Source of the DNA: an uncultured Chloroflexia bacterium
GTDB lineage: Bacteria > Chloroflexota > Anaerolineae > Anaerolineales > E44-bin32
Direction: 5' to 3'
NCBI GenBank assembly: GCA_963818575.1
Contig: CAWFSV010000013.1
Location: 172,233 to 236,232 of the forward strand
DNA length: 64,000 nucleotides
Part shown: positions 8,111-58,962 of the stretch, piece by piece
Layout: every line of letters begins with the position of its first letter
Numbering within the stretch: position 1 is the first letter of the stretch
Notes under the pieces: generated by a model
The model's input: the letters and a program-made list of their open reading frames with translations, nothing else
What the model was told of the DNA's origin: nothing
The model's database searches: none
Translations under genes and position numbers: made by a program

Positions 8111-9301
8111 CTAGAACGTCCGCAAAGGAACGGGGGCGAAGACCAGCAGGAAGAGCACCAGGCCGGCGAAGGCGAGCACTTGTCTGCGAGGATCGAGCGG
8201 CGTGATCTGATCGAGCGGCTCGGCATGCACGCGCCCGAGGACGAACAGGAGCGCCGCCCAGATCCACCACCCTTGCCACAGGAACCCCATCAACGCCAAC
8301 GCACCGACCAGGAAGGGCCACAGCCTGCGTACGCGTGATCCGAGAAGCACGTACATCAGGTGCCCGCCGTCGAGCTGTCCGGCCGGGATCAGGTTCATCG
8401 CCGTCACCAGAAGCCCGGCCCACCCCGCCCACGCCACCGGGCTCAGGAACACATCGCGGCCGCCCAGGGGCGCCGGCAGACCGGTCAGCATGTAGCGCAG
8501 CCAGTAGATCGCCGGCGCCACGCCGCCGAAGGTCGCCGGCGAGGGCAGCCACTCGCCTTTGACCACCCACTTGGCGAGCAGGTAGAGCAGCGAGTTCCCC
8601 TCGAGCACGCCGATCTCCCCCGGTACGTTGGGCAGCGCATCCACCGGCGAGAGCCACAAGCCGAGCAACAATACGGGGATCGTCACGACCAGCCCGGCGA
8701 CCGGCCCGGCCAACGCGATGTCCATCATCGTCCGCCGGTCGCGCGGAGGCTCTTTCATCTGGATGAAGGCGCCCATGGTGCCGAAGACGCTGCCGGGGAA
8801 TGGAATGAAGAAGGGCAGCGTCACCTCGGTCTTGTGGTGTCGCGCCATCAGGTAGTGCCCGAATTCGTGAGCTGTCAGGATCGCCAGCAGGCTGGCGGCG
8901 AACGGCAGGCCCGAGGGCAGGTTCAGGATCAATCCACGCAACGTCAAGGGGCCGGTGTAGCCGTAGAGTTCCCCCGCCAACAGCACACTCAGGACGGTCA
9001 ACAGGAACATCAGCACATTGGCGCGCGGGCTCGCCGTCTTGCCGATCGGCACGCCCTGTCGCGCCAGCACGACGTGCTGCCCTTCCTCGAGCCGGAAGAG
9101 CAGGGTCATCCCCTCGTGGCGGAACGCCGGCGCCAGCTGGTCATAGGCCTGCTGCGAGCCGATCACCAGGCGACCGCGGTACCGCGCGGCGTAGCTCAGC
9201 CCCGTCCCGCCCGGCGTGTAGTCGGTGACCTGCATCACACGCCGCACGGCGGGGAGCAGCCGCTCCGCAAGAATCTCACCCGCCACCATCTCAGTCTGCA
9301 T
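8111..9301 (-). CDS. Site-2 protease family (M50) membrane metalloprotease
   Basis: HEFGHYLMARHH (HExxH) within multiple TM helices. The start is set at MQTEMVAG (ATG 9301) because the longer ORF 8111..9490 runs through the tRNA at 9322-9419. Confidence 0.85.
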   Translation of the reverse strand: MQTEMVAGEILAERLLPAVRRVMQVTDYTPGGTGLSYAARYRGRLVIGSQQAYDQLAPAFRHEGMTLLFRLEEGQHVVLARQGVPIGKTASPRANVLMFLLTVLSVLLAGELYGYTGPLTLRGLILNLPSGLPFAASLLAILTAHEFGHYLMARHHKTEVTLPFFIPFPGSVFGTMGAFIQMKEPPRDRRTMMDIALAGPVAGLVVTIPVLLLGLWLSPVDALPNVPGEIGVLEGNSLLYLLAKWVVKGEWLPSPATFGGVAPAIYWLRYMLTGLPAPLGGRDVFLSPVAWAGWAGLLVTAMNLIPAGQLDGGHLMYVLLGSRVRRLWPFLVGALALMGFLWQGWWIWAALLFVLGRVHAEPLDQITPLDPRRQVLAFAGLVLFLLVFAPVPLRTF

Positions 9302-9321
9302 CGTCACCACCAGAAACCAAA

Positions 9322-9419
9322 GGCGGGAGTGGATGGGAGTCGAACCCACCGCGGCCCGTTGAACGGCCCGCCGCCGGTTTTGAAGACCGGGGAGCCCACC
9401 GGGACCCAACCACCCCCGC
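9322..9419 (-). tRNA. selC: tRNA-Sec (anticodon UCA), CCA not encoded
   Basis: Minus strand: GCGGGGGTGGTTGGGTCCCGGTGGGCTCCCCGGTCTTCAAAACCGGCGGCGGGCCGTTCAACGGGCCGCGGTGGGTTCGACTCCCATCCACTCCCGC. It has an anticodon loop CTTCAAA, an acceptor stem of at least 8 bp, a 6-bp D-stem with a CGGT loop as in E. coli selC, a long variable arm and a TTCGACT T-loop. Confidence 0.8.
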
Positions 9420-9585
9420 GGGCAAGGATACTCCTGCGCCCGAGGGGTGACAAGGGAACCAGGACGCCGCGTCGCATGCCAAGAGTACAATCAGGGACGC
9501 CGGTTCGCGGATGGGAGCGCATGACGACGCCTGGTCAATCCTACGCCCGCGCAGCCCTCAGGCACCGGATCGCCCGGGCCTCGGG

Positions 9586-17495: not shown

Positions 17496-17607
17496 GAGCG
17501 CCCGGGCCGGCACCCGGCGGCACCCGGAGACTCCTCCTTACCGCTGCTTCCTCTCGGACCTGACGGGGTTCGAAGGGCTCCGCCGCGCCGGACCCGCCCG
17601 AGCGCTC
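17496..17607 (-). ncRNA. ffs: Signal recognition particle RNA (small/4.5S type)
   Basis: The minus strand reads ..CCCCGUCAGGUCCGAGAGGAAGCAGCGGUAAGG..GGGUGCCGCCGGGUGCC.., matching the helix-8 consensus GUCAGGUCCGGAAGGAAGCAGC with a GNRA loop (GAGA). The ends pair GAGCGCUCGGGC / GCCCGGGCGCUC. The 5' end sits 7 nt after a TATGCT -10 box. Confidence 0.8.
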
Positions 17608-17727: not shown

Positions 17728-17818
<91 letters not shown>

Positions 17819-45806: not shown

Positions 45807-47306
45807 TCACCCGGCGCCGTCCGCCTGCATGCCGGCCCAGGTGGCGCGCACGAATGCGAGCGCTTCGTCGCGCGTCCCCACGCCGCCCTCGGCCTGCGCT
45901 TCGCGAAGCGCTTCCAGCAGTCGTCCGACGATGGGGCCCGGCTGTAGCCCAAGTGCCTGCATGACCTCTTCCCCGCTGATCAGCTTCGGCGGTTCGATGA
46001 TCTGCGCGTGCTCTTCGAAGAATGCCAGCAACAGCCCCCGCGCCACCGCCACTCGCCCTGCCCATTCCGCTTGAGGGGGTGAAGCGGCGTACTTCCCCAG
46101 CAGGTCGGCCAGCGACAACAGCACGATCCCGATCCCCGCCGGGCCGGCATCCTGGAAGAAACGATAGGCGGCGCGGCGCGTAACGCTCGACGCGGATTGC
46201 AGCATCTCCGGTCGCATGTGGTGCTCGACGGCGGAGACCAGGAACTCGATCTCATCGTTGCTCAGGCGAAGCGCTCGTCCCCGATCGGCCGCCAGCTGCG
46301 CCCCGTGAGCCTCGTGTCCGATGAAACGTGTGCGGCCGCCCGGCCCCCGCTGGCCCGTGAACGGTTTGCCGACATCATGGAGCAGCGCCGCCATGAAGAG
46401 CAGTTGTCGCCGGCTGCGACCAGGGGCGAGTTCATGACGGAGGTAGCCCTCAAGCCCATCGCGGAATCGTCCCAGGCGAAGGGAAGCCTCTCCAAGCGTC
46501 AGATCGGCCGGCCGGTGTTCGTCCGAATCAGGTCCGAGCACGGCCAGCAGGTCGGCCAACCGGTCGAGCACGGCCAGCGTGTGGGTCAGGCCGTCAAATG
46601 CGTGAGGCGAGGGTTGCGCCAGGCCGCGCAGGGGCTCGATCTCCGGACAGGCGACGCCGAGCAGCCCGAGGTGATCGAGTACGCGGAGCGGGCGGCCGGG
46701 CCGTTCCGCCTTCAGCACGCGCATCCATTCATCCCGGATGCGCTCCGGGGAGACACGCGACAGACCGCTGCCTGCGCCCCGGATGTGCTCCAGCATCTGC
46801 GGGTCGATGGTGAGGTTGAGCTCGGTCGCCAGGCGGACGGCCCGCAGAGCTCGAAGTGGATCAGCTTCGATGGCCGTCGGTCCGGCAAGCCTCAGGCGAC
46901 GATCGCGCAGGTCCTGCAATCCGCCCGTGGGATCGAGGACGACCTCCGGCGCATCGGGAGAGATGGCCATGGCATCAATGCTGAAATCCCTCGCCGCCAG
47001 GTCGGCTTCGATCGAACCGCCCCGCAGCCGGGCGAAATCCAGGCTCTGTCCGCCGCGGCTCGCCGGGAGCAGGACCCGGCCGGTATCGCGTTCGGCATCG
47101 AGCTCGTAGTAGGCGGCGCTCAGATGACCGGCGACGCGGCGCGCCAGCCGGCGCGCTTCCCCGTCCACGGCGAAGTCCAGATCAAGGATCGGTCGGCCGA
47201 GGATCTGGTCGCGCACGGCGCCGCCCACGAGCCACAGCCGCGGCGCATCGGGGAGATGCGCCAGCACCTCCGCGACGAGCGGCGGGAGCAGTGGACGGTT
47301 CAGCAT
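45807..47306 (-). CDS. cca: CCA-adding tRNA nucleotidyltransferase / poly(A) polymerase family with HD domain
   Basis: LVGGAVRDQILGRPILDLDFAV, RDFSIDAM, LLHDVGKP; 499 aa, intact. Confidence 0.88.
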   Translation of the reverse strand: MLNRPLLPPLVAEVLAHLPDAPRLWLVGGAVRDQILGRPILDLDFAVDGEARRLARRVAGHLSAAYYELDAERDTGRVLLPASRGGQSLDFARLRGGSIEADLAARDFSIDAMAISPDAPEVVLDPTGGLQDLRDRRLRLAGPTAIEADPLRALRAVRLATELNLTIDPQMLEHIRGAGSGLSRVSPERIRDEWMRVLKAERPGRPLRVLDHLGLLGVACPEIEPLRGLAQPSPHAFDGLTHTLAVLDRLADLLAVLGPDSDEHRPADLTLGEASLRLGRFRDGLEGYLRHELAPGRSRRQLLFMAALLHDVGKPFTGQRGPGGRTRFIGHEAHGAQLAADRGRALRLSNDEIEFLVSAVEHHMRPEMLQSASSVTRRAAYRFFQDAGPAGIGIVLLSLADLLGKYAASPPQAEWAGRVAVARGLLLAFFEEHAQIIEPPKLISGEEVMQALGLQPGPIVGRLLEALREAQAEGGVGTRDEALAFVRATWAGMQADGAG

Positions 47307-47318
47307 GCGCTTTGGCCT

Positions 47319-47876
47319 TCAGGAGTCGTGCAGGAACTTCTCGGGCTGTACCACGCCGATGAACGGTAGATTGCGGTAGTACTCATCCAGGTCCAGTCCG
47401 TAGCCGAAGACGAACTTGTTCGGGATGACGAACCCGCAGTAGTCGATCGGCACCTGGGCCTCACGCCGCTCGGCTTTGTCCAGGAGCGTGCACACGCGCA
47501 GGCTGCGCGGGCGCCGGGCGCCGAGCAGTTCGAGGACCGAGGCGATCGTGTGCCCGCTATCGATGATGTCCTCCACCAGCAGGACGTTGCGCCCCTCCAC
47601 CGAGCTTGCCAGGTCCAGTCCGATGCGCACCTGGCCGGTGGTCTGGCGTGCACCGGCGCCATAGGAACTGATGGCCATGAAATCGACCGTATGCGGGACG
47701 GTGATGGCGCGCATCAGGTCGGTGAGGAACATCACCCCGCCGCGCAGGATGCACACCAGCATCAGGTCCTGTCCCGCATAGTCGCGGCTGATCTGGTCCC
47801 CGAGCTCGCGAATGCGCTGCTGGACCCGGTCGGCGGGGATGAGGATCTCGGCCAGGAACTCGCGGTAATCCTGCAT
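47319..47876 (-). CDS. hpt: Hypoxanthine(-guanine) phosphoribosyltransferase
   Basis: LVCILRGGVMFLTDL, NVLLVEDIIDSGHT, KFVFGYGLDLDEYYRNLP. Confidence 0.93.
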   Translation of the reverse strand: MQDYREFLAEILIPADRVQQRIRELGDQISRDYAGQDLMLVCILRGGVMFLTDLMRAITVPHTVDFMAISSYGAGARQTTGQVRIGLDLASSVEGRNVLLVEDIIDSGHTIASVLELLGARRPRSLRVCTLLDKAERREAQVPIDYCGFVIPNKFVFGYGLDLDEYYRNLPFIGVVQPEKFLHDS

Positions 47877-47879
47877 GGC

Positions 47880-48452
47880 TCAGTCCCGCGGCACGTCGTG
47901 ATGCTGCCGACAGCGGGCCTCGTACATCTCGCTTGCCCCGACCACGACGACCGGGTCATGGTAGTGGGCCGGACGGCCGTTGATCAGGCGTTGGGTGCGT
48001 GTGGCGGCTTCGCCGCACACCATGCAGATGGCGTGCAGTTTATCGACCTGTTCCGCCTGTGCGATCAGCAGCGGCATGGCGCCGAACGGCTCCCCACGGA
48101 AATCCATGTCCAGCCCGGCGACGATGATGCGCAGCCCGCGATCGGCCAGCTGCTGCACTACGGCGACGACGGCGGGATCGAAGAACTGCGCCTCATCCAG
48201 CGCCACGACGGTCGTGCCCTTCTCCACCAGTGCCGGAACCTCGCCGGCCGCTTCCACCGGCGTGGCTTCGAATTCGGTGCCGGCGTGCGAGGTGACCTTT
48301 CCCTTCTCGTAGCGCACATCGACGCTCGGCTTGAAGACCTGGATTCGCTGCCGGGCGATCCGCGCTCGCCGCAGGCGGCGGATCAGCTCATCGGTCTTGC
48401 CGCTGAACATCGATCCGGTGATGACCTCGACATGTCCCGTCCCGTGCTGCAT
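47880..48452 (-). CDS. tdk: Thymidine kinase
   Basis: From [48 protein letters not shown]. The ATG at 48452 follows a GGAGAC SD. Confidence 0.92.
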
Positions 48453-48481
48453 CGCGCCGTCTCCATTCGGAGGAAAAGCAA

Positions 48482-48511
48482 CTGGGCAGGCGCCGGTCGG
48501 CACCTGCCCAG
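48482..48511 (-). terminator. Intrinsic terminator after rpmE
   Basis: ctgggcagg / cctgcccag (9-bp stem), followed on the minus strand by TTGCTTTTCC. Confidence 0.7.
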
Positions 48512-48544
48512 AGTGTACACCCACGAAGCCGCGGGGCAACCCGT

Positions 48545-49027
48545 TCAGGCAGCCGGCTCAGCTTCCCCTTCGGTCTCCGGCAGCGAGAAGCCGCGGGCGC
48601 GGAGCCGCCGCTTGAAATCGGCCAGGCTCTTGCGTCCGAATCCCTCGACGGCCAGCAGGGCCTCATCGCCCCCCTGCTCCAGTCGCTCGAGGGCCTGCCC
48701 CACGGTCGCGATCCCCGCCTTCGACAGGGCCCCTTCGGCGCGCGCGCCGAGCTCGAGGGCCTGGATGGTCAGATCGGGCGACGTGCGCGAGGCCTCGCGC
48801 GTCTCGACCTCGGTCAGATACTCCTGGCGGGCCTGGAGCTTCTTATAGAACCGGTCCACCTGACCCTCGGTGTCGACGATGCGCTGCTCCCCGGTGTAGA
48901 ACGGGTGGCACTTCGAGCACACGTCGGTGTGGATCATTTCGGTCGTCGAGCCGGTGTGCCAGGTATTGCCGCACGCGCACACGATGGTGGCGTTCGGGAA
49001 GTACTTGGGGTGAATACCTTGCTTCAT
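48545..49027 (-). CDS. rpmE: 50S ribosomal protein L31 fused to a C-terminal RNA polymerase alpha-CTD-like helix-hairpin-helix domain
   Basis: The N-terminal ~70 aa are L31 ([43 protein letters not shown]). The C-terminal ~75 aa [50 protein letters not shown] follow the alpha-CTD pattern [12 protein letters not shown]...I..(I/V)GDL...LL....(L/F)GKKSL.EIK..L...GLSL. Confidence 0.85.
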
Positions 49028-49121
49028 GCGCTTTCCTTTCCCCGTGCAATCGTTGCGAGGCGCCTGCGGGCTGATCCCCGGGGTCGAAAGTCAGCCCGTG
49101 CCGCGTCCCCGCACCGGCAGG

Positions 49122-49385
49122 TCAGGCCTGCTCAACCGGAATGACGTTGACCCGCTTGCGTCCGCCGCGGGCGAAGTCGAACTTGACACGGCCATCGGCG
49201 ACGGCGAACAGGGTATCGTCCCCGCCCCGGTCGACGTTCAGGCCGGGATGGATGTGCGTGCCGCGCTGCCGCACGATGATGTGGCCGGATTGGACCAACT
49301 CACCTTCGTACTTCTTGACGCCCAGCCGCTGAGAATTGCTGTCGCGTCCGTTGCGGCTTGAGCCGCCACCCTTCTTGTGTGCCAT
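49122..49385 (-). CDS. rpmA: 50S ribosomal protein L27
   Basis: [39 protein letters not shown]. Confidence 0.95.
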
Positions 49386-49401
49386 GATCTTGCTCCGCTG
49401 C

Positions 49402-49842
49402 CTACTTCTTCTTCGGCGCCGTCTTGGGCTTGGGCTTGGGCGCCTCCGCCTTCTTGGCGGCCGGCGCGGCTGTCCGGGTCCTGGGGGCGGCCTTCTTCGG
49501 TGCGGCCGCGGGCTTCGGGCGCTCGCCGGGCTCGCCGATGCCGTCGACCATCACCCGCGTGTACTGCTGTCGGTGGCCCCGCTTCTTCCGGTAGCGCTCC
49601 TTGGGGATGTAGCGGTAGACGATCACCTTGGTGCCCTTGGTGTGCTCGGTGACCGTGGCATGGACCTTGATCCCCTGGACTGCCGGGGTACCGATGCGGA
49701 CGTCGCTGCCGTCCACCACCAGCAAGATCCGGTCGAACTCTACGGCCTTGCCCACCTCGACCGGCAGCCGGTCGACTTCCAGGGCCTGGCCCTCGCGGGC
49801 GACGTACTGCTTCCCGCCCGACTCGACAATTGCGTAGCTCAT
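49402..49842 (-). CDS. rplU: 50S ribosomal protein L21 with a Lys/Ala/Pro-rich C-terminal tail
   Basis: [39 protein letters not shown], then ..[39 protein letters not shown]. Confidence 0.93.
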
Positions 49843-49956
49843 GTTCCTGTCTCCAGCTTCGCTTCGCCGCCGGTCCCGCGCTGTGCGCCGGCCGGCGGGG
49901 AAGTTGGGGATACGCAGTCCCGCCCCAACACGCCGGTTGGGGCAGGTCTGGTCATT

Positions 49957-52900
49957 CTACCAGCCCCGCCACCGGCTGTCAATCGCCGGCGTCGGCTCGA
50001 GTTCCGTCTCCACCGCCGGGACGGCGATCGGCTCCAGGCGCTCGTCATGCAGCACAGCCTCCTCGCCCGGGAAACCGGTGCCGGCCGGGATGAGCTTGCC
50101 GATGATCACGTTCTCCTTCAGCCCGCGCAGGTAGTCGATCTTGCCCTCGATCGCCGCGCCGGCCAGCACCTTGATCGTGTGCTGGAAGGAGGAGGCGGAG
50201 AGGAACGACTCGGTGTTCAGCGACGCCTTGGTCACTCCGAGCAGGATCTGGGCCCCGCGCGCCGGCTGCCCGGTGTCGGTCAGCATCCTCTCGTTCATGG
50301 CCTGCAGGTGCAGCCGGTCGACCAGGTCGCCGGGCAGCAGGTCGCTGTCGCCGGGCTGCGTGATCTGCACCTTGGAGAGCATCTTGCGGATGATGACCTC
50401 GAAATGCTTGTCGTTGATGTTCTGACCCTGCGAGCGGTAGACCTTCTGGACTTCGGTCATCAGGTACAGCTCGCATGCCTCGCGGCCCAGAATGCGCAGG
50501 ATCCGATGCGGGTTGAGCGAGCCCTCGGTGAGCTGCTCCCCGGCCACCACCTTGGCGCCATCCTTGACCAGCAGACGGGCGCTGGCCGGGATCTCCACCT
50601 CGAACTCGTCGACCTGATCGTAGGCGACGACGGCTTTCTTGTCTTCCAGCCGCAGGCGCCCGGTGTGGCTGACGACGACCTGCAATTCGCCGCGCGTGGC
50701 GATCACGTCCCCGGCCTGGACCTCGACGCCGTCCTCGACCTTCACCGACCAGTTGCCCGGGATCGGATACTCGTCCTGGATCAGCTGGCTGTTGACGATG
50801 CGCAGCACCCGCTGCCCTTCAGGCGAATCGGGCACGTGGATGTGGAGCGTGCCGGCGATCTCGGCCGTCACCGCCTCGCCCTTGGGCTTCTTGCGCGCCT
50901 CGAACAGCTCCTCGACGCGCGGCAAGCCGGTGGTGATGTCGCCGCCGGCGGCCACGCCGCCGGTGTGGAAGGTGCGCAGCGTCAGCTGCGTGCCCGGTTC
51001 GCCGATCGACTGTGCGGCGACGATGCCCACCGCCGCGCCCAGCTCCACCATCTTGGCCCGCCCCAGGTCCTGCCCGTAGCATTGCCCGCACATCCCGAAC
51101 AGCAGCTCGCAGGTGAGCGGGGAGCGGACGTAGACTTCCTGAACGCCGGAGCGGCCGAGGGCCAACGCCAGATCCATGTCGACGACCTGGCCGCCTTCGG
51201 CCAGGATCTCGCCCGTGGCCGGGTCGACGACGCGGGCGGCGGTGATACGGCCGAAGAGGCGCGACGGGTAGTCCTGCCCGGCCACATCGTCCGACCGACG
51301 GACGAAGATGCCCTTGTCGGTGCCGCAGTCGTCGGCGTTGATGATCATGTCCTGGGCGACATCGACCAGGCGGCGGGTGAGGTAGCCGGCATCGGCGGTA
51401 CGCAGGGCGGTATCGGTCAGACCCTTGCGGGCGCCGTGGGTCGAGATGAAGTACTCGAGCGTGTTCAACCCATCGCGGAAGTTCGAGCGGATGGGGAGCG
51501 GGATGATGCGCCCGGCCGGATCGGCCATCAGGCCGCGCATGCCGGCCAGCTGCGAGATCGGGCCGAAGCCGCCCTTGGTGGCGCCGGAGATGGCCATCGT
51601 GCTCAGGTTGCCCGACGGATCCATGGCGGCGCGAACCGCAGCGGCCACCGTCAGGGTCGTCTCCTGCCACAGCGCGATCGTGCGCTCGTTCTGCTCCTGG
51701 TCGGTCAGCAGGCCGCGGCGGTAGTCGCGGCTGATCGCTTCCGCCTCCAGGAGCGTCTTGGCGATGATGGCGCTCTTCTCCGCCGGCACGGTGATGTCCG
51801 AGACGGCGATCGTCGTCCCGGAAACCGTGGCGTACTGGAAACCGATGTCCTTGATGGCGTCGACCACCGTCGGCGTGCCCTCTTCGCGCAGCACCAGATA
51901 CACCTCGCCGACCAGCTTCTGCATCGAGCCCTTGTCCAGGACGCGGTTGACAAAGTGCAGCTCCGGCGGAAGCACCCGGTTGAAGAGCACGCGTCCGACG
52001 GTCGTCTGCAGCATGCGGGTCTCCGGCTCAGCCAGACGGACGCCCTTGTCGTCGTACCAGGTTTCGGTCCTCAGCCGGATCGGCGTGTGGATCTCCACCT
52101 GGTCCAGCCCGTAGGCCAGCTCGACCTCGTCCATGTCGGCGAAGGCGCGCCCTTCCCCGCGATGCTTGCGGTTCTCGACCAGCATCGTCAGGTAGTACAC
52201 GCCGAGCACCATGTCCTTCGACGGGCTGACGATCGGCTCGCCGTCCGCGGGCTTGAGCAGGTTCTTGGTGGACAGCATCAGCGAGCGGGCTTCCTCGACC
52301 GCCTTGGACGACAGCGGGACGTGGACCGACATCTGGTCGCCGTCGAAGTCGGCATTGAACGCGGCGCACACCAGCGGATGGAGGTGGATGGCCTTGCCCT
52401 CCACCAGCACGGGCTCGAACGCCTGGATGCCCAGGCGGTGGAGCGTCGGGGCGCGGTTGAGAAGCACCGGGCGGTCCTTGATCACCTCTTCCAGGACCTC
52501 CCACACCTCCGGGCGCTCCCGTTCGATGATGCGCTTGGCGCCCTTGACATTGGCGGCGTAGTTGTAGGAAACCAGCTTGGAGATGACGAAGGGACGGTAG
52601 AGCTCCAGCGCCATCGTCTTGGGCAGGCCGCACTGGAACAGCTTCAGGTGCGGGCCGATGACGATCACGGAGCGGCCGGAGTAGTCGACGCGCTTGCCGA
52701 GCAGGTTGCGGCGGAAGCGCCCCTTCTTGCCCTTGAGCATGTCGCTGAGCGACTTGAGCTCGCGTCGGCCCCTTCGGGAGAGCGCCTTACCGCGCTGGGC
52801 GTTGTCGATCAGCGAGTCGACCGCCTCCTGCAGCATGCGCTTCTCGTTGCGCACGATCACGTCCGGTGCACCGAGTTCGACCAGGCGCTTGAGGCGGTTG

Positions 52901-54228
52901 TTGCGGTTGATCACCCGCCGGTACAAGTCGTTCAGGTCGGAGGTGGCGAAGCGACCGCCGTCGAGCTGGACCATCGGGCGCAGGTCGGGCGGAATCACCG
53001 GCAGGACGGTCATCACCATCCACTCCGGACGGTTGCCCGAGCGCCGGAACGCCTCGACGACCTTCAATCGCTTGGTGGCCTTCTTCTTGCGCTGCTTGCT
53101 GCGCGTCGTGCGGGACTCCTCCCACAGCTCCTTGGACAGCGTCTCCAGATCGATGCGCTGCAGGATTTCGTAGAAGGCTTCGGCGCCCATGTCGGCCCGA
53201 AAGACCTGGCCCCACTTCGCCTTGAGCTCGCGGTAGCGCGTCTCGCCCAGGAACATCATCGGGGCGATGGCGGTCAGTTCATCGCGATCGGAATCCAGTT
53301 GCTCGCGGGCCGTCGAGCCGTCGTCGTCGACGGCGTCGCGCAGCTCGGCCATCGCCAGGTCGGATTCGGCCTTGACCTTGTCGACCTGCAGGGTGATGCG
53401 CTCCAGCTCGCGGTTGCGCTTCTCCTTGCCGGTGGCCTCGATCTCGTCCAGCCGCACCTTGACCACTTCCTGGACGCGGGTGATGTGGTCGGAGGTGATG
53501 GTCTCGCCCTTGTCGGCGATGAGCGTGTCGGTCTCGTTAAAACGGATCGCCGCCCGGATGGTCTTGTCGAGCTTCTCGGTCAGCGAGCGTTCGAGCGACT
53601 GACCCTCGCGGATGATCGGATCAATGCGCGCCGCCACGTCCTCGGAGAAGCTCTCCTCGACCTGGCGCTTGCGCTCCTCCAGGTCCTCCAGGCGCTTCTT
53701 GCGGTTGGCTTTGATCTGGGCGATGCGCTGGTTGAGGCCGTCGGCCTGTTCCTTCTCCAGCCGTCCGATCTCATCCTCGATGCGCTTGAGGGCCTTGCGC
53801 CGGGCCTCTTCGTCGATATGCGTGACCACGTACTGGGCGAAGTACAGCACCCGATCGAGGTTGCGGCGAGAGATGTCGAGCAGCAGCCCGAGGTAGGACG
53901 GCACCCGCCGCGTGTACCAGACGTGCGCCACCGGCGCCGCCAGCGTGATGTGTCCCATGCGCTCGCGGCGCACCGACGACCGCGTCACCTCGACGCCGCA
54001 CTTCTCGCAGGTGATGCCCTTGAAGCGGATGTTCTTGTACTTGCCGCAGTAGCACTGCCAGTCCTTCGTCGGCCCGAAGATCGCTTCGCAGAACAGGCCG
54101 TCTTTCTCCGGACGCAGCCGCCGGTAGTTGATCGTCTCCGGCTTCAGCACCTCACCGTACGACCAGCTCAGGATGATTTCCGGCGACGCCAGACTGATTC
54201 GCAGAGCTTTGAACGATTTGGATTCCAC
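49957..54228 (-). CDS. rpoC: DNA-directed RNA polymerase subunit beta'
   Basis: 1423-aa intact ORF (GTG start). Zn-finger [24 protein letters not shown] and the trigger-loop/bridge-helix blocks are present. Confidence 0.97.
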
Positions 54229-54401: not shown

Positions 54402-57400
54402 CTACCCCGCGAGACGGGCGGGAAGCTCCAGCGTGAAGGTGCTGCCGACGCCGAGCCGGCTCTCGACCGTCACCCGCCCTCCGTGCTGCTCCACCACCGA
54501 CTTGACGATCGCCAGGCCGAGGCCCGAGCCCTTCTCGCGCAGCGTCTCGCTGCGCCGCGCCCGATAGAACTTCTCGAACAGACGCGCCTGGTCGGTCGGG
54601 GCGATCCCGACGCCGGTGTCTTCCACGCTGATGGTCTGCCGTCCGTCGTGCTGCCGGGCACGCAGCGTCACCCGCCCACCCGCCTGCGTGTACTTGATGG
54701 CGTTGTCCACCAGGTTCGCCACCGCCTGGCGCAGCAGCGTCAGGTCGGCTTCGATCGGACGCATGCCCCCGGCTACGTCGGTCGCCAGCGAGATCCGTTT
54801 GTTGGCCGCCTGCGCCTGGTACGCGCCGGACACGTCCTGCACGACGCTGTCGACGCTGACGGTCTCGAGGTTCAGCCCCACGCCGGCTTCGATCCGCCCC
54901 AGGTCCAGCAGATTGTCGACCAGCTGCGTCATCTGCTCGACGCTCTCGTGGATCTTGCGCACGAAGTCCTTCTGCTGCTCGTTCATCGCGCCGACCATCG
55001 AGAGCATGGTTGCATAGCCGCGCATCAGCGTCAGCGGCGCGCGCAGGTCATGGCTGACGGTGGACACGAATTCCGACTTGAGCATGTCGACTTTCTTGAA
55101 GTGCGTGATGTCCCACAGCACGCACACCCGGCCTCCCTCGCCGTCCCCGCCCGGGCGAATGTCGGTGGCGGTCGCAAACAGCGCCCGTCCCGTCCCCATG
55201 GCGACCTCGGCCGTGCGCACTTCCGATCCGGCATGCAGCAGCTCGAGGACTTCTCGCGACGTCACCCATTCCGTCGCCGGCTTCCCCAGCACGTCTTCGA
55301 TATTGCCGCGCAGCACGGCTTCCGCCGCCGGATTGGCCAGCGTGATCCTTCCCCGTCGGTCGGTCGCCAGGACGGCATCCGGGGTTGCCTCGAGCACGGC
55401 GCCCAGCCGCAACCGTTCCTGTTCGGCGCGATGGAACAGGCGGGCGTTGCTGACGGACACGCCGATCTGGGAGGCGAGAATCGTCAGCAGGTTGCTGGAG
55501 TCCGGAGGCAGCGACTGGGCCCGGCGGTAGCCGAGCCAGATCGTACCGATGAACGTCTGCTCATCGCGCAGCGGCACCGCGGCCAATCCCTGCAGCGGCT
55601 CGGTCACCTGAGCGAGGTTGAGGACGGCGCGGGCGCGCCCGGGGTTCTCGAGGGTGAAGCGTCCTCGCTGCCGCGCCAGCTCCACGACCTGCGCGTCCAG
55701 CGACGCCCAGTTGCCGCGGTCTTTCCCGGCGCTGAAGACCTCCATCGAGCTGCCGGGCTCGCCGCCCGGCCCGAGCAGGGCAACCCGGACATGATCGGCG
55801 CGCAGCAATCGGCCGATGCCTTCCAGAATCGGCGGCAGGATCCCGGCCAGATCGAAGCTCGACGCCAGGCGCTGGCTGGAGGCGAGCAGCAAGTCCATCT
55901 CGCCCAGCCGGGCTTGCAGGCTGCGGCGCATCCCTTCGAACGACATCGCCAGGCGCCCGATCTCATCCTCGCTGCGCACCCGGATCGGCAGCGCCAGATT
56001 CCCGCGGGCGATCGATTCCGCCGCCAGGGCCATCTCACGCAGCGGCCGCGTCAGGCGACGACTGGTGGCATACAGCACGAGCATCATCACCGCCCCGACG
56101 GCCACCAACACCGCCACCAGGCGCGTCGCCAGCTGGACCGCCAGCGCATTGATCGTACGCTGCGGAATGCTGACGACCACCTGCCAGGGATAGCCTTCGG
56201 CCGCCCGGATCAACACCCACTGCCGCGTGCCGTCGGCGGCGATGACCGCCGAGGCTGCCCCGCTGCGCGGCGGAAGCGCCGCCGTCTGCAGGATGCGCGC
56301 CGGATCCGGGTGCACCAGGATGCGGCCCGCCTCGTCGACGATGAAGGCTTCGCCTTCGGTGATCGCCTCCAGCTGCTCGACGATCGGCAGGAACAACGGA
56401 TTGCTCGCCAGGTCGGTCCAACCGGCCAGCGCGCCTCCGGTGCGGCCACCTTCCGTCGTGGCCAGCGGGACGATAAACGCCAGCCTCGCCCCGGAGCTGG
56501 CCGGAGCCGGGGCGACGACGTGTTCCTGTGTGCTTCCCTCCAGCGCCAGCGCCAGCGACGGGCCGATCTCGAGCAGCGCCTGCGCCTCGGCCGGATCGGC
56601 GGAGGTGGTCGCCGTCAGCCGGCCCGTCGGATCGAAGGTGCTGAGGCGCGAGAAGAACGGCACCTGCCTCAACACCGCACCCAGCGCCTCCGACTCGGAA
56701 ACGCCGTCCGCGCGCTGGGCGGTGTAGGACTGCGCCGCTTCCTGTGCAAACGACCGGCCGCTCTGGATGAAGAACGGGATCCCGCCTCCGACGACGCCGG
56801 CGGTTTGTTCCATCTGCGATTCGACCAGGTCCCGCGCCGCCGATTGGGCCAGGAGCCAGTTGCCCAGCAGGAGCACGATCCCGGCGACGAGCCCGACGCC
56901 GGCGAAGGCGGTCAACAACCTGGCGGCGAGGGATCGGTTGTAGGGTGCACGCACGAGCCGCTTGGGCTGGAACCACAGGGAAGGGGCGATGGTCCGCAGC
57001 GCCTCGCAGATGACCCCGGCGCTCCCGAGCTCGAGGACAAGGGCGAGCATCCCGGGCAGCAGCCAGGACATGCCGTACTCGAGTGCATCGTATCCGCTGC
57101 CCCCGGCGTAGGTCACGCGTTCGACGGCACCCAATACCGCGAGCAAGACGCCTGCCGGCAGGCTGACCAGCAGCGGACTGCGCAATCCCCGACCGGTCCA
57201 TTCCACGTATCCCTGCCGCAGAACGCTGGCGACCAGCGCCGCGACCAGGGCCGTGTGAATCGGGGTCAGCAAACCGTGTGTGGAGAATCCCGCAGTGGCG
57301 AACCCGGCCACCAGCCCCACCAGGGCCGCTTCCGTGACGCCTGCGACGCCGCCTGCCAACAACCACGGCAACGCGCCCAGGACGGAGAAGGATGCCGCCG

Positions 57401-57674
57401 GGGCGACACCCCCCTGCCCGGGGAGCGGAAGTCCCGAGATCGCGGGAAGATGGACGACGAGCGATTGCGATGCCAGGGGCGCCAGGAGCAGGAGCAGGAG
57501 GAACAGCAGCGGGCGGCTCGCCTGCGAGGAGGTTTTGCGGGACCGCTGGATCAGATCCCGGAGGACGATCCCCAGGGTCAGCAAGAGGGTAAGCGCGAAC
57601 CAGACATACCCGGAGGAGCGAACGGGCAGTCCTAGCGCAAGGTTCGCGTCGAAGCCCCAGAGGTCGAAGAGCAT
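54402..57674 (-). CDS. Large membrane sensor histidine kinase (multi-TM N-domain, extracytoplasmic domain, HAMP, GAF, PAS, HisKA, HATPase_c)
   Basis: 1090-aa intact ORF. H-box FVSTVSHDLRAPLT, N/G boxes NLVDNAIKYT, DTGVGI, GSGLGLAIV. TGcTATAAT on the minus strand lies at 57710..57702. Confidence 0.9.
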   Translation of the reverse strand: MLFDLWGFDANLALGLPVRSSGYVWFALTLLLTLGIVLRDLIQRSRKTSSQASRPLLFLLLLLLAPLASQSLVVHLPAISGLPLPGQGGVAPAASFSVLGALPWLLAGGVAGVTEAALVGLVAGFATAGFSTHGLLTPIHTALVAALVASVLRQGYVEWTGRGLRSPLLVSLPAGVLLAVLGAVERVTYAGGSGYDALEYGMSWLLPGMLALVLELGSAGVICEALRTIAPSLWFQPKRLVRAPYNRSLAARLLTAFAGVGLVAGIVLLLGNWLLAQSAARDLVESQMEQTAGVVGGGIPFFIQSGRSFAQEAAQSYTAQRADGVSESEALGAVLRQVPFFSRLSTFDPTGRLTATTSADPAEAQALLEIGPSLALALEGSTQEHVVAPAPASSGARLAFIVPLATTEGGRTGGALAGWTDLASNPLFLPIVEQLEAITEGEAFIVDEAGRILVHPDPARILQTAALPPRSGAASAVIAADGTRQWVLIRAAEGYPWQVVVSIPQRTINALAVQLATRLVAVLVAVGAVMMLVLYATSRRLTRPLREMALAAESIARGNLALPIRVRSEDEIGRLAMSFEGMRRSLQARLGEMDLLLASSQRLASSFDLAGILPPILEGIGRLLRADHVRVALLGPGGEPGSSMEVFSAGKDRGNWASLDAQVVELARQRGRFTLENPGRARAVLNLAQVTEPLQGLAAVPLRDEQTFIGTIWLGYRRAQSLPPDSSNLLTILASQIGVSVSNARLFHRAEQERLRLGAVLEATPDAVLATDRRGRITLANPAAEAVLRGNIEDVLGKPATEWVTSREVLELLHAGSEVRTAEVAMGTGRALFATATDIRPGGDGEGGRVCVLWDITHFKKVDMLKSEFVSTVSHDLRAPLTLMRGYATMLSMVGAMNEQQKDFVRKIHESVEQMTQLVDNLLDLGRIEAGVGLNLETVSVDSVVQDVSGAYQAQAANKRISLATDVAGGMRPIEADLTLLRQAVANLVDNAIKYTQAGGRVTLRARQHDGRQTISVEDTGVGIAPTDQARLFEKFYRARRSETLREKGSGLGLAIVKSVVEQHGGRVTVESRLGVGSTFTLELPARLAG

Positions 57675-57804: not shown

Positions 57805-58962
57805 ATGGCCGAAAAGATCCTGATCATCGACGACGATGTCGATACGCTCAAACTGGTGGGCCTGATGCTCGAGCGTCAGGGCTACCGCATCGCCGTTGCC
57901 AGCAACGGGACCTTGGGGATCAGCCGCGCGGCGGTGGAAAAGCCGGATCTGATCCTGCTCGACGTGATGATGCCGGACCTGGACGGGTACGAGGTCACCC
58001 GGCGACTGCGCACCGACCCTGCTCTGGCGCACATCCCGATCATCATGTTCACCGCCAAGAGCATGGTGGACGACAAGGTGGCCGGTTTCGAGGCCGGCGT
58101 CGACGACTACCTCACCAAGCCGACACATCCAGCCGAGCTGACGGCGCACGTCAAGGCCGTCCTCTCGCGGATCACGACCGCCAAGGCGGCGCCCACACCC
58201 AGCCGCGATCGCGAGCGCGCCCGGGTCGTCGCCTTCCTGGGCGCCCGAGGGGGCTCGGGGACCTCGACGCTGGCCCTGAACACCGCCGTCGTCCTGCACG
58301 GCGGCGGCCAGGACGTGATCCTGGCCGAGTTCAATCCCGGGCGCGGATCGATCGCCCTCGACCTCAACCTCCCGAACCCGGTGGGGCTCAGCAACCTGCT
58401 GACCCGCTCGCTGAAGGATATCCACCTGCGTTCGATCGACGGCGAACTGACCGCCCACCGCACAGGCGTGCGGCTTCTCCTGGCCTCTTCCCGCCCCAAG
58501 GAGTTGGAACTCGAACAGGCCGTCCCGCAGATGGAGGCGATCGTCAACAACCTGGCGACGATGGCCACGCTGATCGTGCTCGACCTGGGCGCGGGACTGC
58601 GACCCTATGTCATGCCGCTGGCCAACCTCTCCGATCGAATCATCCTGGTTGCCGAGCCGGTCTACCCGTCCAACACGATCGCGCGCAATCTGATCGACGA
58701 GCTGGCTTCCAGCGGGCTGGGCCGGCATCGGATCAGCCTGGCCCTCGTGACGCGCGAGCGCACCAGCATGCAGATCCCGTGGCAGCAAATGGCGGCCGAT
58801 CTGGGTGTGGAACTCGCCGGGCTGGTCTCGCCGGCGCCGGAGCAGGCTCACCAATCGGCCCAGAATGGAGCCCCCCTCGTCCTGCTCCACCCCGACACTC
58901 TGGTTGGCGACCAGATTCGCAAGCTCGCCGGCCACATCGCCACCGAACTCCAGCTCGCCTGA
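57805..58962 (+). CDS. Response-regulator receiver fused to a TadZ/CpaE-like (MinD/ParA-fold) domain with a degenerate Walker A
   Basis: The REC part has ILIIDDD, LILLDVMMPDLDGY and IIMFTAK. The ATPase-like part has VVAFLGARGGSGTSTLALN in place of KGGxGK(T/S). Confidence 0.85.
   Translation: MAEKILIIDDDVDTLKLVGLMLERQGYRIAVASNGTLGISRAAVEKPDLILLDVMMPDLDGYEVTRRLRTDPALAHIPIIMFTAKSMVDDKVAGFEAGVDDYLTKPTHPAELTAHVKAVLSRITTAKAAPTPSRDRERARVVAFLGARGGSGTSTLALNTAVVLHGGGQDVILAEFNPGRGSIALDLNLPNPVGLSNLLTRSLKDIHLRSIDGELTAHRTGVRLLLASSRPKELELEQAVPQMEAIVNNLATMATLIVLDLGAGLRPYVMPLANLSDRIILVAEPVYPSNTIARNLIDELASSGLGRHRISLALVTRERTSMQIPWQQMAADLGVELAGLVSPAPEQAHQSAQNGAPLVLLHPDTLVGDQIRKLAGHIATELQLA

What the first reader, a model, noticed from the sequence alone, without database searches (positions are those of the whole stretch)
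48545..49027. Ribosomal protein L31 fused to an RNA polymerase alpha-subunit C-terminal-domain-like module
The 160-aa ORF begins as a normal Zn-type L31, which normally ends within ~10 aa of ..VDRF.K... It then continues in frame through a ~20-aa linker into ~75 aa whose pattern matches the alpha-CTD helix-hairpin-helix fold: [50 protein letters not shown], compared with E. coli [50 protein letters not shown]. L31 sits at the intersubunit bridge of the ribosome, while alpha-CTD is a DNA/UP-element and activator-contact module of RNAP. A covalent fusion suggests a ribosome-tethered nucleic-acid- or RNAP-interacting domain, possibly linked to transcription-translation coupling. The gene lies three genes downstream of rpoC on the same strand (rpoC, rplU, rpmA, rpmE). 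No stop or frame change separates the two parts, and a good terminator follows.
Basis: partly seen in the sequence, partly recalled or inferred. Interest (0 to 1): 0.65.

Follow-up and report, generated by a model that had tools for sequence, protein, structure and literature searches.

The report
Ribosomal protein L31 carrying RNA-polymerase-type domain
A whole branch of Chloroflexota bacteria makes a double-length ribosomal protein L31 with a conserved C-terminal copy of the RNA polymerase alpha-CTD domain, a module that in one lineage is a close paralogue of one on the transcription factor NusA, which suggests but does not prove a built-in ribosome-to-transcription link.

Summary
On the minus strand at 48545-49027 there is one uninterrupted 160-aa ORF. 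It has a Shine-Dalgarno-like site and a terminator-like hairpin. Residues 1-64 are a Zn-type bL31 (Pfam 98.5 bits). Residues 78-142 pass the Pfam threshold for RNA_pol_A_CTD (32.9 bits against a cut-off of 23.8). The predicted CTD fold superposes on solved alpha-CTDs at 1.0-1.8 A.

It is not an assembly artefact. The CTD part matches in at least 576 species-representative genomes. The best 80 are Chloroflexota MAGs (Anaerolineales and a Limnocylindria relative; one, labelled Methanosarcinales, looks mis-binned), and all encode the in-frame fusion. dN/dS of the CTD is about 0.04-0.26. The anchor-to-hairpin spacing is fixed at 67-68 residues.

The module shares a loop insertion with Anaerolineae-type RpoA CTDs. 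It keeps R265, G296, K298 and S299 but has lost N268, C269, K271 and N294. A second fusion type is 72% identical to an alpha-CTD-like repeat of NusA encoded on the same contig. The rpoC adjacency holds in only 35 of 80 loci.

The function is inferred only. My leading reading is a docking module displayed on the 30S head, with NusA or RNAP as the leading candidate partner. RNA binding is an almost equal rival. I found no published description. I rate it a new variant of a known kind.

The parts
48545..49027 (-). rpmE-long: the complete 160-aa ORF (bL31 + spacer + alpha-CTD-like domain + acidic tail), stop codon at 48545-48547
   Evidence: GC3 0.88
48836..49027 (-). Residues 1-64: Zn-ribbon bL31 domain. 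The four Cys (C17, C19, C37, C40) and the [16 protein letters not shown] motif are invariant or nearly so among homologues.
   Evidence: Pfam PF01197 98.5 bits; NCBIfam L31 equivalogs; invariant columns; dN/dS 0.01-0.11
48776..48835 (-). Residues 65-84: helical spacer ([20 protein letters not shown]). The model continues the L31 C-terminal helix as one long helix 56-81. It ends in a conserved (R/K)-T-S-P motif.
   Evidence: AF2 secondary structure; conservation; DRF-to-GFG distance fixed at 67-68 aa in 80/80 loci
48578..48775 (-). Residues 85-150: alpha-CTD-type (HhH)2 domain. R96 corresponds to E. coli R265, and G131/K133/S134 to G296/K298/S299. The G129-F-G-R-K-S hairpin is invariant. The domain has a 4-residue loop insertion relative to B. 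subtilis alpha-CTD. The N-half is acidic and the C-half basic.
   Evidence: Pfam PF03118 32.9 bits vs 23.8; Foldseek hits on alpha-CTD chains, rmsd 1.0-1.8 A over 59-67 residues; residue statistics; loop insertion; charge split; dN/dS 0.04-0.26
48548..48577 (-). Residues 151-160: acidic, low-complexity tail ([10 protein letters not shown]). Its length varies among relatives.
   Evidence: Tail lengths 4-21 aa; 227 D/E vs 15 K/R summed over the tails of the related loci; pLDDT <50
48472..48511 (-). Terminator-like hairpin (13 bp, 10 G-C pairs, loop of 4) followed by TTGCTTTTCC, between rpmE and tdk
49122..49385 (-). rpmA (bL27), immediately upstream. It is part of the conserved rplU-rpmA-rpmE cluster.
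   Evidence: ORF translation; found upstream in 78/80 related loci
49402..49842 (-). rplU (bL21), with a K/A/P-rich C-terminal tail of about 40 aa
   Evidence: Pfam PF00829 at residues 3-102 of 146; 76/80 loci
49954..49982 (-). Sigma-70-like promoter match (TTGACA-17-TAGAAT, 11 of 12 positions, TG extension). It overlaps the rpoC stop codon, upstream of rplU.
   Evidence: a consensus match only
49957..54228 (-). rpoC (beta-prime, 1423 aa), upstream neighbour in this genome. The linkage to the r-protein cluster holds only in a sub-clade.
   Evidence: rpoC found upstream in 35/80 loci

Best explanation
What it is (confidence about 0.95): this is the genuine, selectively maintained rpmE gene of a Chloroflexota bacterium related to Ca. 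Limnocylindria/Anaerolineae. It encodes a long bL31 with four parts:
- a Zn-ribbon bL31;
- a fixed-length helical spacer;
- an alpha-CTD-type (HhH)2 domain;
- a short acidic tail.

The module most plausibly arose by duplication of an alpha-CTD-type module already present in the phylum, because it shares the same loop insertion. It was then remodelled. The Asn/Cys/Lys residues that RpoA's CTD uses on UP-element DNA were lost. R265 and the G-x-G-x-K-S hairpin were kept, and extra basic residues were gained on the same face.

How it works (inferred, confidence about 0.35): bL31's N-domain sits on the 50S central protuberance. Its C-terminal part crosses to the 30S head and ends near uS14 and helix 41. 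The extra module is therefore held on a spacer of about 26 helical residues above the 30S head. I propose that it acts there as a docking module for the transcription apparatus. It would bind an (HhH)2 or acidic partner such as NusA's C-terminal alpha-CTD-like acidic repeat, NusA-NTD or RpoA's CTD. This would parallel E. coli, where alpha-CTD binds NusA-AR2 through its UP-element face and also binds NusA-NTD. The result would be a built-in link between the lead ribosome and the NusA/RNAP complex.

Shown here: the architecture, the fold prediction, the conservation, the residue pattern and the NusA paralogy. Inferred only: the position on the ribosome, any binding partner and any effect on coupling.
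For: Architecture and fold.

Conservation:
- All 120 listed homologues have both domains.
- At least 576 confirmed matches in species-representative genomes.
- 80 of 80 fetched loci are in frame.
- CTD dN/dS is 0.04-0.26, against 0.01-0.11 for the L31 domain.
- The spacer is fixed at 67-68 aa.

Origin: a 3-4-residue loop insertion is shared with Anaerolineae-type RpoA CTDs and is absent from E. coli and B. subtilis.

Remodelling:
- R265 is kept in 79/80; G296, K298 and S299 in 80/80.
- N268, C269 and K271 are (near-)invariant in 102 RpoA CTDs (102, 102 and 101 of 102) but variable or replaced in the fusions.
- N294 is G in 80/80.
- E305 is K or R in 80/80.

Link to the transcription machinery:
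- 96 of 104 full-length Chloroflexota-type NusA proteins carry an acidic alpha-CTD-like repeat, mean net charge -5.8.
- On contig L083, a second type of L31 fusion lies next to nusA. Its CTD is 72% identical to NusA repeat 2 and only about 41% identical to the window's CTD. This points to a second acquisition or a module exchange.

Literature:
- The bL31 C-domain binds the 30S head (uS13, uS19, uS14, h41) (PMC9966373).
- Alpha-CTD binds NusA-AR2 and NusA-NTD, and both contacts are seen in TTC-B.
Against: - There is no direct evidence for any partner.
- In E. coli TTC-B, NusA touches the 30S body (uS2/uS5), not the head.
- The closest relatives of the type-1 module outside L31 sit on membrane proteins and Wzz/BY-kinase-like proteins. 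That argues for a generic ligand rather than a transcription-specific one.
- A strictly fixed spacer length is what one would expect of a domain docked at one place on the ribosome, for example on rRNA. A free tether would more likely vary in length.
- Type 1 has a basic face and type 2 is net acidic, so the two types need not share a ligand.
- The rpoC adjacency holds in only 35/80 loci.
- I could not show that NusA or RpoA of the very same genome as the window has the complementary module.
Confidence: 0.35

Rival explanations
1. Structural or RNA-binding extension. The HhH module docks at a fixed site on the ribosome itself, on 16S rRNA of the 30S head or on mRNA or tRNA near bridge B1b/c. 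It reinforces the bridge or tunes head movement, as many lineage-specific r-protein extensions do. It has no link to transcription.
For: - The G-F-G-R-K-S hairpin and R265 are invariant. N294 replaced by G gives a canonical G-hydrophobic-G HhH hairpin, typical of backbone binders.
- Residues 129-147 have 7 K/R against 1 D/E.
- The spacer is fixed at 67-68 aa across clades below 50% identity.
- The last residues of bL31 already contact h41 and contribute to subunit association (PMC9966373).
Against: - The same module type occurs on NusA, on RpoA (as a second CTD), on membrane proteins and on kinases. A 16S-site-specific binder should not be that promiscuous.
- The type-2 fusion carries a net acidic, NusA-derived copy.
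- The N-half of the domain and the tail are acidic.
- No rRNA from these genomes was available to look for a matching expansion.
Confidence: 0.3
2. Nucleoid tether. The module still binds DNA in the minor groove or on the backbone, as alpha-CTD does, and keeps ribosomes close to transcribed DNA.
For: R265, G296, K298 and S299, four of the six classical UP-element determinant residues, are retained in 79-80 of 80 fusions. The fold is that of alpha-CTD. Related modules on membrane proteins could be nucleoid-membrane tethers.
Against: N268, C269 and N294 are invariant in 102 RpoA CTDs of the same bacterial class but lost in the fusions. From my own knowledge of E. coli alanine scans (Gaal 1996; Murakami 1996), N268 and C269 are each required for UP-element binding. 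A ribosome stuck to DNA would be costly.
Confidence: 0.1
3. Ribosome-ribosome contact. The (HhH)2 modules on the heads of two ribosomes pair with each other, or with an acidic tail, to promote dimerisation or hibernation or polysome packing.
For: (HhH)2 domains can pair with one another, as alpha-CTD does with NusA-AR2. The domain is a charge dipole followed by an acidic tail. 100S dimers in other bacteria form through 30S contacts (general knowledge).
Against: Nothing specific points to it. No hibernation-factor linkage is seen in the conserved neighbourhood.
Confidence: 0.05
4. Artefact or decaying fusion. A sequencing or assembly frameshift or a read-through has joined L31 to a neighbouring small gene, and the extension is not made or not functional.
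For: None found. Many short 'stand-alone' hits in the representative library might at first look like a separate gene.
Against: - Those short hits begin with ..DTEGQVDRF.., so they are truncated gene calls of the fusion.
- 80 of 80 independent species genomes have the same single ORF.
- dN/dS is well below 1 in the extension.
- There is no internal Met or start in the spacer.
Confidence: 0.01

Closest known systems
Canonical Zn-type bL31 (RpmE, type A; about 66-71 aa; e.g. T. thermophilus and E. coli)
   Same: Residues 1-64 align end to end at about 60% identity to T. thermophilus L31, with the same Cys pattern and the same GxVDRF 30S-head-binding end. The gene sits in an r-protein gene cluster.
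   Different: Canonical proteins stop about 5-10 residues after DRF. This one continues for 96 more residues with a helical spacer, a folded domain and an acidic tail. No solved L31 matches the spacer.
RNA polymerase alpha-subunit C-terminal domain (alpha-CTD, PF03118)
   Same: The Pfam family is matched above threshold. The predicted fold superposes at 1.0-1.8 A. R265, G296, K298, S299 and the hydrophobic core are conserved. The loop insertion is the same as in Anaerolineae-type RpoA CTDs.
   Different: It is attached to a ribosomal protein instead of alpha-NTD. N268, C269, K271 and N294 are lost, R293 is acidic and E305 is basic. It is only about 39-40% identical to Anaerolineae-type RpoA CTDs and 28% to E. 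coli. RpoA of the same bacterial class keeps its own CTD.
NusA C-terminal repeats: E. coli AR1/AR2 (HhH)2 domains, and the alpha-CTD-like repeat of Chloroflexota NusA
   Same: These too are flexibly attached (HhH)2 modules on a protein of the gene-expression machinery. The Chloroflexota NusA repeat hits PF03118 and shares the loop insertion. One L31 fusion type is 72% identical to it on the same contig.
   Different: NusA repeats are acidic (mean net charge -5.8) and mostly keep N268 (83 of 97). The window's type-1 module is about neutral overall, has a basic face and lacks N268.
bL12 C-terminal domain on the stalk (a factor-recruiting domain on a flexible or helical tether)
   Same: The logic is the same (analogy only): a small folded domain held away from the ribosome body by a spacer, whose job is to recruit partners.
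   Different: There is no sequence or fold relationship. bL12's role is experimentally established, whereas the role proposed here is an inference.

Membership tests
bL31 (Ribosomal_L31, PF01197 / TIGR00105 / NF000612) | Profile-HMM match above the curated cut-offs over the whole domain | tested here: met
   PF01197 98.5 bits (cut-off 27), positions 1-64 of 65. NF000612 97.3 bits (cut-off 70). TIGR00105 87.8 bits (cut-off 38.35).
bL31 (Ribosomal_L31, PF01197 / TIGR00105 / NF000612) | Zn-binding Cys pattern of the type A (C+) form | tested here: met
   C17, C19, C37 and C40 are present and invariant in 20 aligned homologues.
bL31 (Ribosomal_L31, PF01197 / TIGR00105 / NF000612) | Incorporation into 70S ribosomes as bridge B1b/c | not testable with these tools
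   The only support is inference from homology and from the conserved rplU-rpmA-rpmE context. No second L31 is present in the window. The rest of the genome was not seen.
RNA_pol_A_CTD domain family (PF03118) | Profile-HMM match above the gathering score | tested here: met
   32.9 bits against 23.8, residues 78-142, profile positions 5-65 of 67.
RNA_pol_A_CTD domain family (PF03118) | Compact helical (HhH)2 fold of alpha-CTD | tested here: met
   AF2 model with pLDDT 80-89 in this part. Foldseek hits: 7vpd_S rmsd 1.0 A over 59 residues, 8y5t_A2 1.5 A over 64, 3n4m_B 1.6 A over 66, 3gfk_B 1.8 A over 66. This is a prediction, not a solved structure.
Functional RpoA alpha-CTD (UP-element / activator-contact module of RNAP) | Covalent attachment to the alpha-NTD of RNA polymerase | tested here: not met
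   The N-terminal partner is bL31. There is no RNA_pol_A_bac or RNA_pol_L domain. Anaerolineae-type RpoA proteins keep their own CTD.
Functional RpoA alpha-CTD (UP-element / activator-contact module of RNAP) | Complete '265 determinant' for DNA (R265, N268, C269, G296, K298, S299) | tested here: not met
   R265 is kept in 79/80, and G296, K298 and S299 in 80/80. N268 is variable (S/D/E/G) and C269 is A/S/T, against 102/102 N and C in RpoA. N294 is G in 80/80.
Functional RpoA alpha-CTD (UP-element / activator-contact module of RNAP) | Binding to NusA (AR2 or NTD), sigma region 4 or activators | not testable with these tools
   E261 is retained in 69/80, but it may be structural. No complex prediction was possible.
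NusA-type C-terminal (HhH)2 acidic repeat | Close sequence relationship to the repeat on NusA of the same lineage | tested here: inconclusive
   Met for the type-2 fusion (72% identity on contig L083). The window's type-1 module is only 37-41% identical to NusA repeats, and the window's own NusA was not available.

The most novel reading that the evidence does not exclude
In Anaerolineae and Limnocylindria the ribosome carries its own coupling adaptor. The alpha-CTD-type module on bL31 binds NusA and/or the RNAP alpha-CTD. The basic-faced type 1 would bind NusA's acidic repeat. The acidic, NusA-derived type 2 would bind RpoA's CTD. The lead ribosome would then be wired to the elongating polymerase through a protein that is a stoichiometric part of every ribosome. 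This route to transcription-translation coupling would differ from the NusG-uS10 and NusA-uS2/uS5 bridges known in E. coli. It would have been acquired at least twice.
Probability: 0.2. Interest if true: 0.85.

Novelty: new variant of a known kind. Interest (0 to 1): 0.6.

Why it matters
bL31 forms the only all-protein bridge between the 50S central protuberance and the swivelling 30S head. Alpha-CTD is the main recruitment module of bacterial RNA polymerase. A fusion of the two is under strong purifying selection in hundreds of species of an abundant but poorly studied phylum. Databases annotate it only as '50S ribosomal protein L31', and ten full-text literature searches found no description of it.

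Together with the alpha-CTD-like repeats on NusA and the double-CTD RpoA forms in the same phylum, it gives a concrete, testable handle on how transcription and translation are connected outside the E. coli/Bacillus models. Even if the module turns out to bind rRNA, it would be a clear case of a transcription-machinery domain recruited into ribosome architecture.

Tried and rejected
- A genome scan with a very diverse CTD alignment failed because no stretch was conserved enough. I repeated it with a closer alignment.
- I tried to show that RpoA or NusA with the complementary modules come from the very same genomes as the L31 fusions, by matching 'longest contig' lengths. No match was found, so co-occurrence is shown only at class or order level and on contig L083.
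- A check for nusA next to the type-1 loci or in the window found none.
- A check for extra CTD-like domains, for example on L21, within +/-6 kb of the 80 loci found none. The single L21-CTD protein P0230 rests on one 763-bp contig and is not relied on.
- Rfam found no leader or other RNA in 47000-51000 and no rRNA in the window.
- A PDB sequence search with the spacer region gave no hit.
- Ten literature searches found no description of the fusion (for the fusion itself; for background).
- Rejected: the 'stand-alone helix + CTD protein' reading. The short hits are truncated calls that start inside ..DTEGQVDRF...
- Rejected: RpoA having lost its CTD to L31. All 120 listed Anaerolineae-type RpoA homologues keep PF03118.
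- P0132 is a low-complexity false positive (GYR/YLP motifs).

Full report
OBSERVATION.

It has an ATG start, encodes 160 aa and has no internal stop. A purine-rich Shine-Dalgarno-like stretch (GGGGAAAGGAAAG) precedes the ATG. GC3 is 0.88 in a window of 67.8% GC.

Pfam places Ribosomal_L31 on residues 1-64 (98.5 bits, E 2.5e-28). It places RNA_pol_A_CTD on residues 78-142 (32.9 bits, gathering score 23.8, E 5.2e-8). NCBIfam L31 equivalogs pass their cut-offs, and several rpoA models hit the C-terminal part weakly. Against PDB sequences, residues 1-63 align to T. thermophilus L31. Residues 85-154 align to the B. subtilis alpha-CTD (1z3e_B), with a 4-residue insertion in one loop.

An AlphaFold2 model built on 20 homologues has mean pLDDT 73, and 80-89 over the CTD. 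It shows the L31 beta-ribbon, one long helix 56-81 and a five-helix domain. Foldseek superposes that domain on solved alpha-CTDs:
- 1.0 A over 59 residues (7vpd_S);
- 1.5 A over 64 residues (8y5t_A2);
- 1.6 A over 66 residues (3n4m_B);
- 1.8 A over 66 residues (3gfk_B).

The gene order rpoC-rplU-rpmA-rpmE is as stated. A terminator-like hairpin (13 bp, then TTGCTTTTCC) follows at 48511..48482.

IS IT REAL AND SELECTED?

- All 120 best homologues in the 5.8-billion-protein collection are 155-185 aa, 68-92% identical, and carry both Pfam domains. Where named, they are called only '50S ribosomal protein L31'.
Of these, 576 were confirmed relatives of the CTD part.
- The best 80 are Chloroflexota MAGs, mostly labelled Anaerolineales or Anaerolineae. 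They include Ca. Aquidulcis of the class Ca. Limnocylindria. One is labelled Methanosarcinales but has the bacterial synteny, so it looks mis-binned.
- The window's full-length protein is 97% identical to those of two soil MAGs (L001, L002).
- In all 80 loci one HSP runs from L31 residue 1 into the CTD. The one exception is cut by a contig end.
- Pairwise dN/dS is 0.04-0.26 for the CTD codons, 0.01-0.11 for the L31 domain and higher for the acidic tail.
- The distance from the DRF motif of L31 to the GFG hairpin is 67 residues in 70 loci and 68 in 10. It is the same in clades below 50% identity (P0138, P0146, P0235; my count on sequences).
- The short 'stand-alone' hits in the representative library start inside ..DTEGQVDRF.., so they are truncated calls of the same fusion.

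An artefact can be excluded.

CONTEXT.

The conserved unit is rplU-rpmA-rpmE-tdk-hpt-cca (67-78 of 80 loci). rpoC lies directly upstream in only 35 of 80. The window has no rpoA, no second L31 and no other CTD-like domain. It has no Rfam leader near the cluster.

ORIGIN AND REMODELLING OF THE MODULE.

I searched with residues 66-160 alone against 1.84 billion cluster representatives. This gave 580 hits at E<=1e-3 and 63 at E<=1e-10. These include RpoA fragments and forms with two tandem CTDs. Classical RpoA CTDs from outside this lineage mostly score too weakly to appear. The hits fall into these groups:
- L31 fusions from several deep clades, including one on a Cys-less L31 (P0235);
- RpoA proteins with two tandem CTDs;
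- NusA C-termini;
- multi-pass membrane proteins;
- Wzz/BY-kinase-like proteins;
- long proteins with 3-11 tandem PF03118 repeats.

The type-1 module, the Anaerolineae-type RpoA CTDs and the NusA-, L21- and membrane-protein-borne copies all share a 3-4-residue insertion in the loop before the second hairpin (..KLxxGxxE/ALL..). It is absent from E. coli, B. subtilis and the long tandem arrays. This points to an origin inside the phylum.

I compared 80 fusions with 102 RpoA CTDs of Anaerolineae type. E. coli numbering was checked on the K-12 rpoA fetched. The results are:
- R265 is kept in 79/80, and G296, K298 and S299 in 80/80.
- N268 is N in 102/102 RpoA but variable (S/D/E/G) in the fusions.
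- C269 becomes A/S/T, and K271 becomes mostly A.
- R293 becomes D/E.
- N294 becomes G in 80/80.
- E305 becomes K/R in 80/80.
- R297 is invariant.

The face that alpha-CTD uses for UP-element DNA is thus the most conserved face of the module. It has nevertheless lost the Asn and Cys residues that are invariant in RpoA, and it has become more basic. Residues 129-147 have 7 K/R against 1 D/E. Residues 85-128 have 3 K/R against 8 D/E. The tail is acidic. All 120 listed Anaerolineae-type RpoA homologues keep their own CTD, so L31 has not taken over RpoA's domain.

THE NusA CONNECTION.

NusA proteins labelled Anaerolineae, Anaerolineales or Chloroflexi usually have the architecture NusA_N-S1-KH-KH-PF03118. 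Of 104 full-length examples, 96 have an alpha-CTD-like repeat with mean net charge -5.8. A long acidic region and a conserved basic end follow the repeat.

A second, sequence-distinct type of L31 fusion exists (cluster of P0233; 13 members, on contigs up to 167 kb). Contig L083 has the same rplU-rpmA-rpmE-tdk-hpt order. There the cluster lies divergently next to nusA-ylxR-infB-rbfA-truB. The CTD of that L31 is 72% identical (60 of 83) to NusA repeat 2 and 62% to repeat 1 of the same contig. The similarity includes the acidic linker before the domain. The same CTD is only about 41% identical to the window's CTD. L31 has therefore acquired, or exchanged, an alpha-CTD-type module at least twice, once from the NusA lineage.

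MECHANISM (INFERRED).

According to the literature, the bL31 N-domain binds the 50S central protuberance. Its C-domain binds the 30S head (uS13, uS19), reaches uS14 and ends on helix 41. The last eight residues contribute to subunit association (PMC9966373). The extension should therefore leave the ribosome at the top of the 30S head. A helix of about 26 residues would hold the module at a defined distance.

In E. coli, alpha-CTD binds NusA-AR2. By the title of Schweimer et al. 2011, cited in PMC6614797, this is through the UP-element site. Alpha-CTD also binds NusA-NTD. Both contacts are present in the NusA-NusG-TTC-B coupling complex, where NusG-C binds uS10 on the head and NusA binds uS2/uS5 on the body (bioRxiv 10.1101/2020.03.01.972380).

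My leading reading combines four observations: the loss of the DNA-specific residues, the conserved and more basic 'UP-site' face, the acidic alpha-CTD-like repeat on NusA in the same phylum, and the double acquisition. On that basis, the module is a ribosome-borne docking site for the NusA/RNAP assembly. I give this about 0.35.

An almost equal rival (0.30) is that the module binds RNA of the ribosome itself and stabilises or tunes bridge B1b/c. This rival explains the strictly fixed spacer length and the canonical G-F-G hairpin better. It explains the promiscuity of the module and the acidic type-2 copy worse. DNA tethering (0.10) is disfavoured by the lost Asn/Cys residues. Ribosome pairing (0.05) has no specific support.

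COMPARISON WITH KNOWN SYSTEMS AND NOVELTY.

The protein is a member of the bL31 family. Its extension is a member of the PF03118 domain family. It is not a functional RpoA alpha-CTD: it is not attached to alpha-NTD, and the full 265 determinant was tested and not met. I found no paper describing the fusion and no solved L31 with a comparable extension. The architecture is visible in precomputed Pfam annotations, so it is 'known to databases' but unstudied as far as I could find. I classify it as a new variant of a known kind and score interest at 0.6.

LIMITS.

- The taxonomic range is a lower bound from one motif.
- In-frame status was verified only for the best 80 loci.
- No cultured representative was identified.
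- Co-occurrence with NusA and RpoA modules in the window's own genome was not shown.
- The position on the ribosome and every binding partner are inferences.

Noticed in passing
window 54402-57674 (-) and 49957-54228 (-): rpoC is not preceded by rpoB. The upstream gene is a 1090-aa sensor histidine kinase (Cache/HAMP/GAF/PAS/HisKA/HATPase), followed by a divergent response regulator at 57805-58962. No other ORF of 1000 aa or more exists in the window, so rpoB and rpoC are unlinked here.
   Followed up: partly
window 49402-49842 (-), residues about 105-146: bL21 has a K/A/P-rich, histone-H1-like C-terminal tail of about 40 aa beyond the Pfam domain, which covers residues 3-102 of 146.
   Followed up: no
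L082 (763-bp ENA contig), protein P0230: A 173-aa protein combines a bL21 C-terminal part, a K/A/P linker and an alpha-CTD-like domain of the same subtype as the L31-borne one (42% identical). It is seen on one short contig only, so it may be a second r-protein fusion or a chimera. No such L21 occurs in the 80 fetched loci.
   Followed up: partly
proteins P0429-P0546; L083 2936-4939 (-): NusA of Anaerolineae/Chloroflexi MAGs typically carries one (sometimes two) acidic alpha-CTD-like repeats (PF03118). A long acidic low-complexity stretch follows, and then a conserved basic end (..LVYDEELGKVVAKRRRKPGRRR.EWE..). This is a functional analogue of, or replacement for, the gamma-proteobacterial AR1/AR2.
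   Followed up: partly
proteins P0128, P0130, P0136, P0344, P0392 (RpoA, about 391-411 aa when complete): Some RpoA proteins closely related to Anaerolineae-labelled RpoA have two tandem CTDs. The first is canonical (R..NCLK...RNFG.KS) and the second is diverged.
   Followed up: partly
proteins P0159, P0228, P0247, P0194: The closest non-L31 relatives of the window's CTD (45-54% identical) sit at the C-terminus of multi-pass membrane proteins and of Wzz/BY-kinase-like proteins. This suggests the module has a generic ligand.
   Followed up: no
proteins P0126, P0131, P0157, P0163, P0202: Large proteins carry 3-11 tandem PF03118 repeats, combined with Sigma70_r4 or a ResIII helicase domain. These repeats lack the Chloroflexota loop insertion.
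   Followed up: no
window 47880-48539 (-): The longest tdk ORF starts at a TTG that would overlap the rpmE terminator hairpin. The likely real start is the ATG at 48455, which gives a 191-aa protein with a full-length TK Pfam match.
   Followed up: yes
window 49954-49982 (-): A near-consensus extended -10 promoter match (TTGACA-17-TG-TAGAAT) overlaps the rpoC stop codon, 112 nt upstream of rplU. It could drive rplU-rpmA-rpmE independently of rpoC. No Rfam L21 leader is present.
   Followed up: partly
L047 (JAIWHF010000043.1, labelled Methanosarcinales archaeon): This contig carries bacterial rpoC-rplU-rpmA-rpmE(CTD)-tdk-hpt-cca with Anaerolineales-like identities. It is almost certainly mis-binned in an archaeal MAG.
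   Followed up: partly
window 9322-9417 (-), 17509-17594 (-), 17729-17818 (-): A tRNA-Sec (anticodon TCA), a small SRP RNA and a tRNA-Ser(GGA) are present. The tRNA-Sec lies inside the mechanically listed ORF 8111-9490, whose true start must therefore be further downstream.
   Followed up: no
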